From IMG/VR virus record IMGVR_UViG_2651869695_000008: DNA of 45,692 nt; one strand, given 5' to 3'. A program made the position numbers. This stretch comes from a virus. Its lineage: Duplodnaviria > Heunggongvirae > Uroviricota > Caudoviricetes. Below, in pieces: positions 7,101 to 13,100 of the stretch (within the stretch, counting starts at the first letter, position 1; each line of letters starts with the position of its first letter).

Positions 7101-10100
7101 GAAGAATCAATGGGTTAGTCTTACTTTCCCGACATCCCCCAATGGGGGTTTTCGAAACAATCAATAGCTTAGGCTTACTTCCCCGATTTCCTGCATTGCA
7201 GGTTTTCGAAATAATCAATGGGTTAGGCCATCGTGCAATTTTGCACTTTGCCAGCCAGCGCAATGTCGCGTTATCAGTCCTCAGATGTGAGGGATGTAGC
7301 CAGCTTTTCCCCCAGTGGGGGATATCCAGCACCGACGGCTTAACTGTGCGTGCCAGCACAAGGTAGCCTTGAACTACTTACTGCATCCCATCTTACAGGC
7401 CGTGCCTTCCTGCTTAACTTTTTGCAATGCAACAAGTCAGCCAGCGCAATTTTGCGTTATCGGGAATATCAGCAAGTTACCGCCGCAATCGTTCCGGCTT
7501 CTTCCACTGGTAAGTGTTTTTCGCGCTCTCCCTCCGTTGTTGAGAACGGCGACGATATGCCAGCAACTCAAGGACTCTTGTTCGTATGTTGCGCATATCC
7601 ACGCCGTTAAGCTCAATACCGTCACGGCGCATCACCTCAGCCACTACACGCACATAATTATCTGCGGTCACGCTGTCCGGCTGCGTGGCCTGTTCGTCAT
7701 GCTGCTTGCTGATTCCACAAGCACGGCGGATTAATCGCAGTATTTCGGATTCAGTCATAGCGTACTACGTTACTTATCTTTATTCGGCTGCAACTTATCC
7801 GGTACGTTTCCGGCAGTTTCCATCAGATAATCGGACAGCATCAGCGGTATGTTTTCGTCAAGTTTTGCGCATGCGTTACAGGCTCTGATAACTTCTTTTT
7901 TCAGTCCATCCAGCATAGACGGCTTCATGTCGGGAAACTTCCTTGTCATGGCAAGCGGCAGGCTGTCCATGATTGAAGAAATCTGACTCGCCAATTTTGA
8001 AAGCACGTATATACAAAACGCGGTATCAATAACGTCGCCGCGTTCGCGCTCGTTTTTAAGCTCCTGCGCCTCTGCCTGTGCTGTCAGCAATCTGATCCTG
8101 ACTCGTAGGAGTTCATCATCATCAATCTCGCCTTTGTCGTCTGTAATCTGGTTAATTGCATTGCTAACCCGATTGTCTATTACGCTGGCAACATCATAAA
8201 ACGCCTCGCGGCCTTTACGTTCAACGGGAGTCACTCCCCACTTGTCGAACGCTGTCGCACTTACACGGCAGCTTTGCGCCATGTTTTTTTTGTTCATCAG
8301 GTGCGATTTCATCAATATCCCCACTTAAGTAATGTTTCAGGTTGGTGTATTGGCTTTATCTTTTCCTTTTTATTCATAGAGATAGAGCGAACAACAAAAC
8401 CACCACCAGCACCCGAAAAAGGCTCATAAATAGCGAAAACCCGCGAGGTCGCCGCCCCGTAGCCTACCGGATCGCCGGAAAGGACCCGCCAGCCAGAACG
8501 GGCCCTAATTTCATCAACCAATCAACTTATAGCGACCATCCCGTGCATTGCGACGTACACGCTCAATCTTGAGGCATAGCGCCGCATCTGGCTTTTTTGG
8601 GACAGGTACGCGGCAATATTCAGAAGATCGAGGAATATTGTTTATCCAGTCGATCACTTCACTTAAATACCAGGCCTTACGCCCTTCCGTAACCTGTACG
8701 CGTTCGGGGAACTCTCCGCGAGCCTCAAGGTTTAGCAATGTGCGACGGCTAAGGGTAGTAAGTTCCATCACCTGATTCATATCAACAAGGCGTTCACTTA
8801 AACGCATTTTGTCAGCAATAGCCTTTAATTCCTCTACTGCTGGATCCGGATACATCATTTCGGCAATTGGCTTAAGGTCATTGTAATGATTCTGCATTGT
8901 ATCCCCCTTTACACACGAGCCAGCGGCTGAACAGAAATACCTGAGCCAACAAACGCGGCAACCTTTGCCGACAGTTCTTTTACAGACTCAGGCCAGTTCA
9001 GAGCATCAACATTTAAAACACCTGTCTTATAAACCTGTGCCTGTGTTTTTTTCGCTGTGTCGATTTGTACAGCGGAAACATAAACCGCTTTACCTACGCT
9101 CGAACCATCCCATACCACCAGTGCACCTGTTGCATCTTCCTGCATCAGTGGCGTAAATGCAGGAATTACCCCTTTATTAGCTGAAAATATCCCCAGCGTA
9201 GTCACCAGTGCTTCAGTGCCAGCCATGAGTTCAGTGTAATGAGTAGCCATTGCTCCCCCTTAGCCAATGCGAACGGTAACAAAACGATTGATGCGGGCCG
9301 GTATTGGCTGTGGTGCTGAATGTGTCTGCACATATTCAATAGCCGGATCACCAGGCACAATATAGTTTTTCGGTGCAAGTTCGGCTTTAGTCAGCCCCAT
9401 TCGGATTAGCTCCGGATCCTGAATACCGCCATAGGCGACAATCCCCTGAAGAGCCGTATTGCCAAGCACCATCAAATCAGGATCAAGGAAATGTTTTTCT
9501 GTTCCGTCCTCGTCGGTATAACGCCCGCTGTAAACAACAATCGCAACATCGCCCATATACCCTTTAAAACTCACCGAATCACCAAGGTCTTTAAGGGCCG
9601 TTTCCAGTTCGGAATTAGAACCACGACGGGTATCCAAAGCCTCTTTTATCGCTCTGAATGAACGGTATTTCTTCCATACATTACCACCCATAATGATGAT
9701 ATTAGTGACGCCCTCACTAAATTCTGCGTAGCTCTCAATATCATCATTTGGATCAAAAGTTTCTTTATCCTTACCTGACCACTCAGTACCGCCAGACTGA
9801 GTGATGATATTTTGTGGTTTTATATTCCAGTCCAGCTCATAACGTTCAATACCATCGCCCTCAATGATATTTTTCCCCGTTGTGATTGCCTGAACAGCAA
9901 GCCATTCAATACGTGCACGAATAGCTTTAGCCTGATTTACAATCGCCTGTTTAACTTTAATATTACGCGCCCCAAAAGCATTGTATTGCTCAGGTGACAC
10001 ACCAGCAGGGCGCACAGCTAACTTATTTGGATCAATGCTGCTTTTCGGCTTCATATAACCTGGACGAATTGTTTTTGATTCGTATCCCTCATCTCGTGAA

Positions 10101-13100
10101 ACTTTACTGCCCACCATAGGAGAGCAAAACGCCGCGATCGGGATATTTGGATCGTCGATCGTATCAAGAATAATGTCTCTCGATTCAAACATTACCGAGC
10201 GAGTGAAAAACAAACTGGTAAACAACGCATTTAATTTTTTTTGCACATCTTCAGCATTAGCCACCTGCACAAGCTGTGTAGGCGAATATAAATCAACCAT
10301 ACTCATCCTCTTTACATTCATTACAAATAATTGTGAATATATTCTATTACCGATGTCTGCTATGCGAATACATGCAACCAAGTGCAATGTTGTATAAAAT
10401 ATGCCGTAACAACTTCAGTGCTGATAATTCGTGTTAATGTATTTACTTCCTTTGGTCGGGATTTATGTAGCATGCCGGAAAATCTATTTTTTTCCGGCAT
10501 CTTTTTGTTTGCAGAATTTAAAACGGTATATTATCGCCGTACGGATCATCATTCCCCGACTGTTGTTTTGCCCTGTTCAGTGCGTCAGTGGCCTGCCCCT
10601 GCTGGCCTTTTTTGCCGCCCGGTCGCGCCGTTCGCGCACTGATTACGCTGTCTGCGATAACCTGCCAGCCCCGCCGCGTTTCGCCGTTCTGGCCTGTCCA
10701 CTGGCTTACCTGCATGTTACCCGCCACGCTCACCAGTTCGCCTTTGTGGTGTTTTGCCAGTGCGTCGGCCTGTCTGCCAAACGCCAGGACGGATAACCAC
10801 ATCGTCGCCGTTCCGTCATCTGCCTGGCTGCACGGCAGGGGAACCGCCATACTCGCCATCGCCATTTGTGTCCCTTTGCTGGTGGTCTTTAACTGCGGGT
10901 CAGCCACCAGCCGCCCGTAAGCCGCTATCTGTGCTGTCATGCTGTCTGCTCTCCGGTTTTAACATTGATGGTTGTCACCTGTTCCGCTTCGGCAATCTCC
11001 CGTTCTGTCAGCGTGGCAAAGTTTGCCGCTGCTGTGGTCATGAATGCGCTTATCAGGTCGGGATGTTCCTTCGCGTATCCTGCCCGTGTGTGGTGGTCTA
11101 TCGCTTTGATTGCCACCTTTAAGGAAAGCTCTGTCATGTCTAACGCTTTATATTTTGCCTGTGTTCTGTCTCTGCGAATTTTGGTCATTTGTCGCCCCTG
11201 ATTCATGTTTTCGGCTGGCATGTTTGTTAAGTGATTTTTATGTATGCGCATTTATTTTCACCCCCCCTCGTTTAAAAAGTTTTTAGTTGTGCCTCCCCCC
11301 CTCTACCCATCTACCCGAATGCTCATCATGTCAGTAATGGCGCGGCTTTCAGCGGGTAGATAGCTTTTTGACTCCTCTACCTGCCGTCTACCCTGCTACC
11401 TGAAACTGATAAAATCAGGTAGAAGAGGTAGAGAGCTTTTATTAGCCTTCTACCTAGCCCTACACCCACTTATCATGTTGAATAATATGCGTTTATTTTG
11501 TTCAGGTAGATGGGGTAGATGGCTTTTACAAAAAATTATAAAAACGCGTCGCAATCGTCTGTTGTAATTGCGTTGGTCTGCGTTACTCCCTTAACTTTTC
11601 GCGTAATATATTCATGCCCGTAAACTTTCGCCGCTGGCTTCATGGCCTTGCTGAACTCAGCCACGTTTAGCGGTTTGCTCCTGCCCGCGTATGCCATAAA
11701 CGCCAGATAGACGCGGTAAAGGCTGTTCCTGGTCGTGTACTTCACTGAATCACCACCGCCACCCATCATCAGGCCGCGCGCTTCCTCCAGAAAATTCAGG
11801 AACTGGCAAAACTCAATAACCGGATCCGTCTGTTGCTTTATTGCCAGTGCTTCATCACCGTCACGCTGTTCCAGTAGTAAAGCCCGTGCCTTCTCAGGGT
11901 CGGTAAAGTTCGCCAGCAATCGGCGGATAATAACGGGGATTTCAGCCGCAATCTTTTCCGGTAGCTCCCTGTCTTTTTCGGCCTCACTGACGATATTGTC
12001 GAAACGGAAAATCACGCGACGACGTGCCACACCTCCGGCCCGTTCGGTGAATATCATCGGGTTGTTGTTGGTCGCCAGCACCACCGCCCTGATTACCGCC
12101 GTGAAACGCTTTTCATATTTCGGGTTAATTTCCACGGGGTCGCCGCCTGTGATTTTCTTGATGCCCGTTCCTTCGCCTGTATATTTCGGCTGGTCAGCCA
12201 GGACGATAAGACGACTCCCGACAACCTGCGCACGTCCACCAGCATCATCAAGCGATGTCATTTCAGCGCTTACCGTGTTCTGTTTCCCTGCCAGAAGGCT
12301 GGCTATGTGTGTGAATGTACTTTTACCGCTCCCGCCGTCTCCGGTGGCCTCAATAAACATCTGCCAGTCGTACCGGTTCGCCATAATCATGTACAGCGCG
12401 GCACATATACGCATCATCTTGCGCGGGTCTTTTCCGGCTGCGTGCTCAAGCCATTTATGAAAGTTTGGCGCGTTATCGCGGATGTTCTCCCCTGGTGCTG
12501 GTGGCGTGTACTCAATGCCGTTGTGCGTGGTGATCCAGTTCTCCGGCGTGTGCGGGGAAAATTCCCCCGTTTTCAGGTCAAGCGCACCATTGGCGAACGG
12601 CAGCAAATCGCCAGACGGCTCGCCCATTGGTTCGGCAATAACTTTTAACGCTTCCACGGCGTTATTGATTACGCGCTTGCTGAAAGTGGCCCTGTGCTCT
12701 GAATAGATCGCCACCATTTCGCGGCTAAGTTCCATTGTGCTGACCGGACACCATACCCCGCCGCGCCATACGTGAACGATTTCACTTTCAGGATGTACGC
12801 AAACGCCATCAAAGCGATCGGCAAGCAACTGCGCGCGCTCACTGTCCGCCATCTGCGAAAGTTGCGCCTTTTGCTTTACCGGAAGCTCAATGACCAGACC
12901 ATCAGAAAGATTCTGGCGTTCACGGGCCAGATATTCGCGCCAGTTCTGCACCTCCTGGCCGTGCATACCCTCAGGATAAAAATTTGCATCCTGTACGCCT
13001 GCTGCCGCCAGCTTCTGACCAATCGCCTTTATCATTACAGGCGCAAGATATCCGGCCCTGTATATGCGTGCTGATTTTCGGCCTTCCGGCACAATTTGCA

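What the first reader, a model, noticed from the sequence alone, without database searches (positions are those of the whole stretch)
7770..10306. Satellite encodes its own E-like capsid, D-like decoration protein and Nu1-like small terminase with a private cos site
The satellite carries homologs of lambda E (9260-10306) and D (8909-9250), and a small terminase (7770-8312) whose C-terminal half parallels the part of Nu1 that contacts gpA while its N-terminal DNA-binding region differs. Its cos site has a cosN identical to the prophage cosN, but the flank on the terminase side is different. It lacks portal, protease, scaffold, large terminase and tail genes. This suggests it builds its own shell from helper portal, protease and large terminase and redirects packaging through a specificity-swapped small terminase, an arrangement between classical PICIs and capsid-forming PICIs.
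Basis: partly seen in the sequence, partly recalled or inferred. Interest (0 to 1): 0.75.

Follow-up and report, generated by a model that had tools for sequence, protein, structure and literature searches.

The report
Phage satellite's capsid and packaging genes
The three genes and the cos site are real, but they are the usual late-gene module of a known type of E. coli phage satellite (a PICI), here sitting inside its helper prophage's portal gene, so the layout is ordinary; only its small terminase, which takes the place of the known Rpp protein, has not been studied.

Summary
Observation confirmed. On the minus strand lie a lambda E-family capsid gene (9260-10306), a D-family decoration gene (8909-9250) and a Nu1-family small terminase (7770-8312). 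Upstream of the terminase is an exact lambda cosN (8446-8457), identical to the prophage cosN (21210-21221), with a different cosB side. All lie inside a 10,897-bp integrase-bounded element inserted in the prophage portal gene.

Interpretation partly supported. This is the classical Gram-negative PICI layout. EcCICFT073 is syntenic and has its own E and D homologs. Published PICI core components are integrase, AlpA, primase, capsid gene and terS. [quoted passage not shown] It is not an intermediate towards capsid-forming PICIs.

Added here:
- The terminase sits in the slot that holds RppA in EcCICFT073. In 80 related loci it never co-occurs with Rpp, and E and D are always present where the DNA is held.
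- Its DNA-binding domain is phage N15-type (recognition helix 7/8 identical).
- A conserved GGT/GTT tract lies at the R3 position of cosB.

Retargeting of helper TerL is therefore plausible but untested. "Builds its own shell" is weakly supported: the EcCICFT073 capsid gene is dispensable for transfer, although E and D are under strong purifying selection.

The parts
6656..6668 (-). att core at the distal junction (AAGGCGATGTATG). The portal gene resumes here (C-terminal fragment 5888-6670).
   Evidence: Alignment with the intact portal gene of phage 2B8; RefSeq annotates a portal pseudogene.
17553..17565 (-). att core at the integrase-proximal junction (AAGGCGATTTATG). The portal N-terminal fragment (17555-18388) ends here. 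Core-to-core distance is 10,897 bp.
16116..17357 (-). Satellite tyrosine integrase.
   Evidence: Pfam Arm-DNA-bind_3 plus Phage_integrase. 54% identical to the integrase of a capsid-gene HE-PICI and 40% to the EcCICFT073 integrase.
15857..16114 (-). AlpA regulator/excisionase next to int.
   Evidence: Pfam Phage_AlpA, E 5e-14.
11536..13290 (-). Primase-replicase (D5_N/DUF5906).
10518..10940 (-). SSB.
   Evidence: Pfam SSB, E 5.5e-16.
9260..10306 (-). Lambda E-family major capsid protein homolog of a satellite-specific lineage.
   Evidence: 55% identical to EcCICFT073 c1499, 86% to the copy in L006 and 42% to helper E. dN/dS 0.02-0.22.
8909..9250 (-). Lambda D / phage 21 SHP-family head decoration protein homolog.
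8514..8897 (-). Second AlpA-family protein (127 aa), just upstream of cos. It fills the slot that holds a 137-aa protein in EcCICFT073.
   Evidence: Pfam Phage_AlpA; PDB 8c3t, E 8e-11; phrog_2790; no similarity to the CFT073 137-aa protein.
8424..8488 (-). Satellite cosQ-like heptamer, cosN (12-mer at 8446-8457) and right flank. Near-identical to the helper cos.
8313..8423 (-). Satellite cosB side. The candidate R3 is GGTGGTGGTTTTGTTGTT at 8390-8407 (bp 51-68 from the cohesive end). An inverted CACCAAC element starts at bp 111.
   Evidence: The distance from cosN to the terS ATG is 145 bp in 80 of 83 relatives.
7770..8312 (-). Nu1-family small terminase with an N15-type DNA-binding domain. It lies in the slot that holds RppA in EcCICFT073.
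7477..7758 (-). Conserved 93-aa protein of unknown function that ends the module. 76% identical to its EcCICFT073 counterpart.
21054..21221 (-). Helper prophage cos: cosN 21210-21221, and lambda-type R3 (21155-21169), R2 (21102-21116, inverted) and R1 (21054-21068).
18587..21032 (-). Helper Nu1 (20487-21032) and gpA large terminase (18587-20512). gpA is 87% identical to N15 TerL.

Best explanation
Window 6656-17565 is a 10.9-kb phage-inducible chromosomal island of the EcCICFT073 family. It is integrated in, and co-oriented with, the portal gene of a lambda-like prophage, so it is a helper-embedded PICI.

The finding's coordinates cover its late/packaging zone: an E-family capsid gene, a D-family decoration gene, a second AlpA-family gene, cos, a Nu1-family terS and a conserved 93-aa gene.

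Most likely mechanism:
1. After helper induction the satellite excises. This restores the helper portal gene. The satellite then replicates from its own primase and origin.
2. Its TerS binds the satellite cosB through an N15-type winged-helix domain. The proposed site is the GGT/GTT tract at bp 48-68, the R3 position.
3. Through its Nu1-like C-terminal half, TerS brings the helper large terminase gpA to the lambda-type cosN/cosQ.
4. Satellite concatemers are then cut and packaged into heads whose portal, protease, scaffold and tails all come from the helper.
5. The helper's own Nu1 should not recognise this cosB, so the TerS/cosB pair does the job that Rpp does in EcCICFT073.

The E and D homologs are conserved accessory head proteins. 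They probably enter or modify the helper-built shell, but they are not the basis of transfer.

Shown: gene identities, boundaries, synteny, the cos anatomy, the TerS/Rpp exclusivity across the sampled relatives, and purifying selection. Inferred: DNA binding at the GGT/GTT tract, gpA recruitment, and any role of E and D.
For: Identity and boundaries. The arm-type motif GTGTATTGCA occurs 4 times near the two ends, against 0.11 expected by chance.

Synteny with EcCICFT073.

TerS in place of RppA:
- Same slot in the gene order.
- No sequence similarity between the two proteins.
- No Rpp homolog in the window or in 80 TerS-type loci.
- TerS homologs were found only in satellites: HE-PICIs in gene E, and PICIs at the phoQ site.
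- All 75 of the 80 loci with enough upstream DNA carry both E and D.

TerS is a full-length Nu1 relative:
- phrog_57 over residues 1-176.
- A profile built from satellite TerS only hits lambda TerS 1-98 (6hn7_B), E 0.005.
- The AlphaFold2 N-terminus is a winged helix, pLDDT 71-85.

N15-type DNA-binding domain:
- The best match in the phage collection is N15 gp1, 47.6% identity.
- Residues 1-50 are 59% identical to N15 with 1 gap, against 38% to the helper with 19 gap columns.
- The recognition helix is 7/8 identical to N15.

cosB:
- Conserved tract at bp 48-68, in the same triplet register as N15 R3 (bp 48-59, GAGGTTGTTGTT).
- Helper R elements and the satellite tract are mutually exclusive in the window.

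Precedent: a chimeric N15/lambda TerS works with lambda TerL, and lambda and 21 do not package N15-cosB DNA (PMC4669245).

Selection: dN/dS is 0.02-0.22 for E, 0.15-0.20 for D and about 0.2 for TerS.
Against: - No experiment exists on this TerS.
- The last 40 residues are only 38% identical to the helper Nu1. That is about as far apart as lambda-type and 21-type TerS (30%), which are TerL-specific (PMC9026076).
- At the N15-critical bp 54-59 the satellite has GGTGGT, not GTTGTT. The number of GGT repeats also varies by 3-6 bp among relatives, although cosN-to-R3 spacing is critical in lambda.
- The AlphaFold2 model is of modest quality (pLDDT 66), and Foldseek found nothing significant.
- No covariation was found between TerS C-terminal variants and cosN variants.
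Confidence: 0.6

Rival explanations
1. The satellite E and D proteins build a satellite-specific shell, possibly smaller, around the helper's portal, protease and scaffold. The satellite genome is packaged into that shell, making the element a true intermediate between classical and capsid-forming PICIs.
For: - E and D are always kept together: 75 of 75 loci.
- Satellite E and D proteins resemble each other more (53-86%) than they resemble helper proteins (27-46%).
- They are under strong purifying selection; dN/dS is as low as 0.02.
- By my own inference, not tested here, a decoration protein that has diverged together with its capsid protein suggests that the satellite capsid protein forms its own binding sites for it.
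- In SaPIbov5 a satellite capsid homolog (Ccm) does make small capsids (cited in PMC6092414).
Against: - In the closest studied relative, c1499 was replaced by a cat marker and the island still transferred at high frequency. No phenotype was found for c1499 or c1500 (PMC6092414).
- E. coli PICIs of this family are reported to be packaged in phage-sized heads as concatemers (PMC10111431; bioRxiv 10.1101/2022.09.08.507074).
- This satellite has no scaffold or protease.
Confidence: 0.2
2. The satellite TerS acts like Rpp rather than as a stand-alone TerS. It forms mixed oligomers with the helper Nu1 through the conserved central region. Helper Nu1 supplies the gpA contact and the satellite subunits supply the cosB specificity.
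For: - The best-conserved segment between satellite TerS and helper Nu1 is residues 72-127 (57%, no gaps). From memory of the gpNu1 domain literature, this roughly matches the Nu1 self-association region.
- The gpA-binding tail is only 38% identical.
- EcCICFT073 strictly needs the phage TerS for transfer (PMC6092414, PMC6739421).
Against: - The satellite TerS keeps a full-length, gap-free C-terminal half under selection, which Rpp lacks.
- The Nu1 segment around residues 50-70, where Rpp-escape mutations map, is largely deleted or unalignable in the satellite protein (PMC6739421).
- Residues at the DNA-binding-domain dimer interface also differ (PMC9026076).
Confidence: 0.2
3. The E and D homologs act mainly to interfere with the helper, for example by poisoning or diverting helper head assembly, or they serve as spare copies. 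They are not part of the satellite's own particle.
For: - Helper-embedded PICIs often sit in head genes and carry a copy of the capsid gene; a 'backup copy' role has been suggested (PMC10111431).
- The published PICI core description calls this gene a capsid-morphogenesis function thought to block packaging of phage DNA (PMC10085698).
Against: - Deleting c1499 or c1500 did not relieve interference in EcCICFT073. Interference mapped to RppA (PMC6092414, PMC6739421).
- This satellite interrupts the portal gene, not E, so a backup role does not apply here.
Confidence: 0.1
4. The region is a decaying remnant of a second ordinary prophage, and the genes no longer function.
For: Only three head/packaging genes are present, with no portal, TerL or tail genes.
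Against: - Precise att cores sit inside an otherwise intact portal gene.
- The element has its own integrase, AlpA, primase and SSB.
- The same element is found at 99.9% identity in 53 complete E. coli genomes.
- The module is conserved in more than 80 loci, with constant cos-to-terS spacing and low dN/dS.
Confidence: 0.02

Closest known systems
EcCICFT073, the prototype Gram-negative cos PICI (Fillol-Salom et al. 2018 and 2019)
   Same: - Same gene order: int, alpA, primase, SSB, E-like capsid, D-like decoration, small gene, cos, packaging-specificity gene, 93-aa gene.
- Capsid 55%, decoration 54% and 93-aa protein 76% identical.
- cosQ and cosN are of helper type, with a different cosB.
   Different: - EcCICFT073 carries RppA (144 aa; TerS-like DNA-binding domain only). 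Here there is a full-length Nu1-family TerS.
- The gene before cos is a 137-aa protein there and an AlpA-family protein here.
- EcCICFT073 has two cos sites and sits at a chromosomal site next to phoQ. This element has one cos and sits in a prophage portal gene.
Helper-embedded PICIs (HE-PICIs; Tommasini, Mageeney and Williams 2023), e.g. 11capE
   Same: [quoted passage not shown]
- The att core lies at portal codon about 276, roughly position 240 of the Pfam Phage_portal_2 profile. This matches the published B:Phage_portal_2:240-243 site group.
- A repeated arm-type motif flanks the ends.
- The integrase is 54% identical to that of a capsid-gene HE-PICI.
   Different: - The model element 11capE is described as lacking terS and sits in gene E.
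- The published paper does not discuss a Nu1-family TerS or its cosB.
Phage N15 TerS (gp1) with its cosB, and the lambda N15hy4 chimera (Feiss et al. 2015)
   Same: - Closest phage TerS found (47.6% identity).
- Same indel pattern in the DNA-binding domain, and recognition helix 7/8 identical.
- A G(T/G)T triplet tract at the R3 position in the same register.
- An N15-type DNA-binding domain working with a lambda-type TerL has been shown experimentally (PMC4669245).
   Different: - The C-terminal half of N15 TerS is 80% identical to the helper Nu1; the satellite's is 57% (residues 72-127) and 38% (last 40 residues).
- N15 has GTTGTT at bp 54-59; the satellite has GGTGGT there and GTTGTT at bp 63-68.
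- N15 is a complete phage.
SaPI small terminase TerS(S) (SaPI1, SaPIbov1) and the PLE TerS of Vibrio cholerae
   Same: A satellite-encoded small terminase that pairs with the helper's large terminase and directs packaging to the satellite's own recognition site (as described in PMC6739421 and PMC11417361).
   Different: Those systems use headful (pac) or unrelated packaging and unrelated TerS families. SaPIs add Ppi to block the phage TerS. Here the system is cos-type, Nu1-family, and no Ppi or Rpp was found.
SaPIbov5 Ccm
   Same: A cos-type satellite that carries a homolog of the helper's major capsid protein (cited in PMC6092414).
   Different: Ccm is reported to make small capsids and to interfere with the helper. 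The E. coli PICI capsid homolog has no known phenotype (PMC6092414).
Capsid-forming PICIs (EcCIEDL933)
   Same: Carry their own major capsid protein and small terminase.
   Different: cf-PICIs also encode portal, protease, head-tail connectors and TerL (PMC10085698; bioRxiv 10.1101/2022.09.08.507074). None of these is present here.

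Membership tests
Gram-negative PICI (core components as in de Sousa et al. 2023 and Fillol-Salom et al. 2018) | Integrase at one end, followed by an AlpA-type regulator. | tested here: met
   int 16116-17357 and AlpA 15857-16114.
Gram-negative PICI (core components as in de Sousa et al. 2023 and Fillol-Salom et al. 2018) | Primase-replicase module. | tested here: met
   D5_N/DUF5906 primase 11536-13290; SSB. Two 27-nt direct repeats lie just downstream of the primase; an origin function for them is inferred only.
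Gram-negative PICI (core components as in de Sousa et al. 2023 and Fillol-Salom et al. 2018) | A capsid-morphogenesis gene, plus a small terminase or Rpp. | tested here: met
Gram-negative PICI (core components as in de Sousa et al. 2023 and Fillol-Salom et al. 2018) | No other phage structural or lysis genes; size about 10-15 kb. | tested here: met
   Only TerS, E and D have helper homologs. Size 10,897 bp.
Gram-negative PICI (core components as in de Sousa et al. 2023 and Fillol-Salom et al. 2018) | Helper-dependent induction, packaging and high-frequency transfer. | not testable with these tools
   Needs induction and transfer experiments.
Helper-embedded PICI (HE-PICI) | [quoted passage not shown] | tested here: met
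   The portal gene is split at 6656-6668 and 17553-17565. All genes are on the minus strand, like the helper late genes.
Helper-embedded PICI (HE-PICI) | Integrase belongs to the HE-PICI clade; the site group is B:Phage_portal_2:240-243. | tested here: inconclusive
   54% identity to a gene-E HE-PICI integrase against 40% to EcCICFT073. The att core lies at about profile position 240. No phylogeny was built.
Helper-embedded PICI (HE-PICI) | A doubled DNA motif in the attP region. | tested here: met
   GCAATACACAYTGCAATACAC at 6742-6762 and 17408-17428. GTGTATTGCA occurs 4 times against 0.11 expected. That this is the published motif was not checked against the paper's figure.
Capsid-forming PICI | Own portal, protease, head-tail adaptor/connector and large terminase. 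| tested here: not met
   None is present in 6656-17565.
Rpp-type packaging redirection | An Rpp homolog: an N-terminal TerS-like winged helix plus an Rpp-specific C-terminal dimerisation domain. | tested here: not met
   No BLAST similarity between TerS and RppA. tblastn of RppA against the window gives only chance hits. No PDB hit to RppC.
Lambda Nu1-family small terminase (Pfam PF07471) | Sequence membership above the curated threshold. | tested here: met
   85.7 bits against a cut-off of 30. Full-length match to phrog_57.
Lambda Nu1-family small terminase (Pfam PF07471) | [quoted passage not shown] | tested here: met
   A satellite-only profile aligns residues 6-84 to lambda TerS 6-101 (6hn7_B), E 0.005. 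The AlphaFold2 topology is strand-helix-helix-hairpin-helix, pLDDT 71-85. Foldseek gave only non-significant MerR-type hits.
Lambda Nu1-family small terminase (Pfam PF07471) | C-terminal domain binds the cognate large terminase. | not testable with these tools
   Sequence similarity only: 49% over residues 72-167 and 38% over the last 40.
N15-type packaging specificity | N15-type TerS recognition helix. | tested here: met
   TAFDKWGV against QAFDKWGV.
N15-type packaging specificity | R3 with GTTGTT at bp 54-59 from the cohesive end. | tested here: inconclusive
   The satellite has GGTGGT at bp 54-59 and GTTGTT at bp 63-68, in the same triplet register. Binding was not tested.

The most novel reading that the evidence does not exclude
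The conserved pair of satellite E and D proteins, together with the satellite's own TerS and cosB, defines a partly autonomous head pathway. In this reading satellite E and D assemble a satellite-specific, possibly smaller, shell on helper portal and scaffold, and the satellite TerS with helper TerL fills it. That would be a real intermediate between classical and capsid-forming PICIs. A related possibility: the N15-type TerS has the one-way specificity seen for N15. It could then also package helper DNA and would make the embedded satellite a partner of its helper rather than a pure parasite.
Probability: 0.15. Interest if true: 0.65.

Novelty: new member of a known kind. Interest (0 to 1): 0.3.

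Why it matters
The layout itself is ordinary. It is a classical Gram-negative PICI module in a helper-embedded copy, and both have been published.

Two open points are made concrete here.

1. In this PICI family a full-length Nu1-family TerS with an N15-type DNA-binding domain and Rpp are alternative cassettes in the same slot, each with its own cosB. These are two routes to the same packaging piracy. The comparison could show how lambda-like terminases read cosB and pair with TerL.

2. The capsid and decoration homologs are strongly conserved, yet have no known phenotype in EcCICFT073. Their role remains an unsolved question about these satellites.

Tried and rejected
- Rfam scan of the satellite for P4-type immunity RNAs (C4/IsrK): no match at gathering score.
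- Foldseek of the TerS model against the PDB: nothing significant, only weak MerR-type hits.
- phmmer of TerS against the PDB: no hit to Nu1 or RppC. Only a family profile reached lambda TerS.
- Test for covariation between the TerS C-terminal variant and the cosN 12-mer variant across 83 loci: identities within and between groups are the same, so there is no signal.
- The idea that the 127-aa gene upstream of cos is an Rpp: rejected. It is an AlpA-family protein.
- BLAST of the EcCICFT073 137-aa protein against the helper protease/scaffold: no similarity. Only a PHROG profile hit exists.
- Promoter scan of 6600-11600: fewer sites than in shuffles. The terminator-like sites were not informative.
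- PADLOC and Pfam on unannotated prophage and satellite ORFs: no hits.
- 'Second prophage remnant': rejected (see rival explanations).
- A size argument from multiples of 10.9 kb fitting a lambda head (my own reasoning, not a tool result): any size of about 9.5-17 kb fits as a trimer or tetramer, so it does not discriminate.

Full report
**1. What is in the window**

The window is an E. coli lambda-like prophage with its late genes on the minus strand. In RefSeq copies of the same DNA (99.9% identical over 10.4 kb in 53 complete genomes) the portal gene is annotated as two pseudogene fragments that flank a 10.9-kb insert.

Alignment with the intact portal gene of phage 2B8 places the junctions at the cores AAGGCGAT(G/T)TATG, at window 6656-6668 and 17553-17565. 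The element is therefore 10,897 bp long.

The insert encodes, all on the minus strand:
- a tyrosine integrase, AlpA and a Bro-N protein;
- a DUF4222 protein, a D5_N/DUF5906 primase and SSB;
- then the genes of the finding.

**2.

- The E-like protein (9260-10306) matches Pfam Phage_cap_E at 4e-41. It is 42% identical to the prophage E protein and hits lambda gpE structures at 9e-78.
- The D-like protein (8909-9250) matches Pfam HDPD and is 37% identical to the prophage D protein. It hits two solved head decoration proteins, 1td0 and 1c5e (which I recall as phage 21 SHP and lambda gpD).
- The 180-aa protein at 7770-8312 is a Nu1-family small terminase (Pfam 85.7 bits, full-length PHROG phrog_57 at 5e-51).
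- The exact lambda cohesive-end 12-mer occurs only at 8446-8457 and 21210-21221, with none in 100 shuffles.
- About 65 bp around it is shared between satellite and prophage, including a GGGTCCT cosQ-like heptamer. The sequence on the terS side diverges.
- Only TerS, E and D of the element have homologs among the prophage proteins in this window.

**3. What it is**

*Synteny with EcCICFT073.* I located this prototype Gram-negative PICI in CFT073. It is syntenic with the element here. Its capsid homolog is 55% identical, its decoration homolog 54% and its terminal 93-aa protein 76%.

*Published descriptions that match.*
- The 2018 paper already reports a putative capsid protein (c1499) and a head decoration protein (c1500) in EcCICFT073 (PMC6092414).
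- The best PDB match of the satellite capsid protein is 3bqw, 'putative capsid protein of prophage' (351 aa, E 1e-121). From memory this is the CFT073 protein.
- The SatelliteFinder paper lists integrase, regulator, primase-replicase, capsid morphogenesis and small terminase as the five core PICI components (PMC10085698).
- Integration inside a lambdoid late gene, in the same orientation, defines the helper-embedded PICIs (PMC10111431).

*Match to the helper-embedded class.*
- The att core here lies near position 240 of the Pfam Phage_portal_2 profile, which is one of the published site groups.
- The integrase is 54% identical to that of a capsid-gene HE-PICI and 40% to that of EcCICFT073.
- A doubled GTGTATTGCA-containing motif flanks both ends.

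The architecture is thus classical. It is not an intermediate towards capsid-forming PICIs, which also need portal, protease, connectors and TerL.

**4. The small terminase**

*Position and partners.* In EcCICFT073 the slot between the decoration gene and the 93-aa gene holds a 137-aa gene, cos1 and rppA. Here it holds a second AlpA-family gene (PDB 8c3t, 8e-11), cos and terS.
- TerS and RppA show no sequence similarity.
- RppA matches the TerS PHROG only over its N-terminal DNA-binding domain, whereas this TerS matches over its full length.

*Where its homologs are found.*
- In HE-PICIs that interrupt gene E in other Enterobacteriaceae.
- In chromosomal PICIs at the EcCICFT073 site next to phoQ.
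- In 80 IMG/VR loci none carries Rpp. All 75 loci with enough upstream DNA carry both E and D.

TerS and Rpp therefore look like alternative cassettes.

*Nearest phage relative.* No phage in the phage collection has a TerS more than 60% identical. The closest is phage N15 gp1 at 47.6%.

| TerS segment (satellite residues) | Satellite vs N15 | Satellite vs helper Nu1 | N15 vs helper Nu1 |
|---|---|---|---|
| 1-50 (DNA-binding domain) | 59%, 1 gap | 38%, 19 gap columns | 34% |
| 72-127 | 55% | 57% | 80% |
| last 40 (128-167) | 38% | 38% | 80% |

- The recognition helix is TAFDKWGV in the satellite, QAFDKWGV in N15 and RTIQNWQE in lambda.
- A profile built from satellite TerS alone still finds lambda TerS 1-98 at E 0.005. 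The AlphaFold2 model has a winged-helix N-terminus with pLDDT 71-85.
- The N-terminal domain is therefore a diverged homolog of N15 type, not a foreign domain.

**5. The cos site**

Across 83 satellites the distance from cosN to the terS start codon is 145 bp in 80 of them. [quoted passage not shown]
- bp 13-34 are nearly invariant;
- the next best-conserved block is bp 48-68, GCTGGTGGTGGTTTTGTTGTT in the window.

This is the position of lambda R3 (helper R3 at bp 53-67). It is also the position of the experimentally mapped N15 R3 (bp 48-59, GAGGTTGTTGTT, with bp 54-59 most critical; PMC4669245). The satellite tract is a run of G(G/T)T triplets in the same register as the N15 tract.

- The helper's three lambda-type R elements occur only at the helper cos. 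The satellite tract occurs only at the satellite cos.
- Downstream there is an inverted CACCAAC element. In many relatives there is also a matching direct GTTGGTG. This recalls the R3-R2-R1 arrangement, but that reading is inference only.

Feiss and colleagues showed two relevant things (PMC4669245):
- Lambda and 21 do not package N15-cosB DNA.

This is a direct precedent for the proposed mechanism. It also warns that specificity may run one way only.

**6. Caveats on the mechanism**

- The reported TerL-binding tail is only 38% identical to the helper's. That is no closer than lambda-type and 21-type TerS are to each other, and those two are TerL-specific (PMC9026076).
- This tail is also the most variable part among satellites: about 70% pairwise identity, against about 92% for the N-terminal 100 residues.
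- It did not covary with the cosN variant.
- The best-conserved stretch between satellite and helper TerS is the central region. An Rpp-like action through mixed oligomers with helper Nu1 therefore remains a live rival.

**7. The capsid and decoration genes**

- Satellite E proteins are 53-86% identical to each other but 41-46% to helper E proteins. D behaves the same way (53-73% against 27-39%).
- dN/dS is 0.02-0.22 for E and 0.15-0.20 for D.
- These are long-standing, selected satellite genes, not recent captures from the present helper.
- Yet in EcCICFT073 the capsid gene was replaced by a marker without loss of transfer. Neither deletion relieved interference, and the family is reported to travel as concatemers in phage-sized heads (PMC6092414; PMC10111431; bioRxiv 10.1101/2022.09.08.507074).
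- I found no later experimental work on these genes in the library.

'Builds its own shell' is therefore possible but not the best-supported reading.

**8. Verdict**

- The element is a new member of a known kind: a helper-embedded PICI of the EcCICFT073 family.
- The interest lies in two uncharacterised points: the TerS/cosB cassette of N15 type that replaces Rpp, and the unexplained conservation of the E and D pair.

Noticed in passing
window 5888-6670 and 17555-18388: The helper prophage's portal gene is split by the satellite. The helper cannot make portal protein, and so cannot make heads for either element, until the satellite excises. The finding text does not mention this.
   Followed up: yes
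L012-L091 (IMG/VR), 145 bp upstream of terS: Among satellites with the same cosB and TerS, the cohesive-end 12-mer varies: GGGCGGCGACCT in 65, GGGCGTCAGGCG in 7, GGGCGGAAGGCG in 4, GGGCGGCAGACG in 3, and others. An identical TerS C-terminal region (residues 101 to the end) is found with two different cosN types. This suggests that cosQ/cosN is swapped by recombination, perhaps with helpers.
   Followed up: partly
L005:21084-21497 (EcCICFT073); the same gene in L009-L011: The 137-aa 'hypothetical' gene between the decoration gene and cos1 matches the C-terminal end of the PHROG 'head maturation protease' profile (positions 495-567 of 583, E 1e-8). It may be scaffold-like. BLAST against the helper protease found nothing. 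The window's satellite has an AlpA-family gene in that slot instead.
   Followed up: partly
L009-L011, about 9728 (minus strand): The phoQ-site PICIs that carry the Nu1-family TerS have a second, oppositely oriented cos downstream of terS. Its flank has phage-like repeated CAGATCC elements. The window's satellite has a single cos.
   Followed up: no
window 7075-7236: Three tandem 54-nt repeats (65-72% identical), each with an internal palindrome. They lie between the 93-aa gene and the distal att site. They overlap a 91-aa ORF with no family match.
   Followed up: no
window 11415-11441 and 11502-11528: Two 27-nt direct repeats (TCAGGTAGA.G.GGTAGA..GCTTTTA) just downstream of the primase gene. 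This is where PICI replication origins are reported, so they are candidate iterons.
   Followed up: no
window 28346-30118 (+), within the low-GC stretch at about 27-31 kb: A 590-aa ORF on the strand opposite to its neighbours, in a region of 34-40% GC inside the helper prophage. It has no Pfam or PADLOC match and may be a moron of unknown function.
   Followed up: partly
L092 (phage N15) 89-595, compared with window 20487-21032: N15 TerS is itself a natural mosaic. Its N-terminal domain is of the satellite/N15 type, while its C-terminal half is 80% identical to the lambda-type helper Nu1. N15 TerL is 87% identical to the helper gpA.
   Followed up: yes
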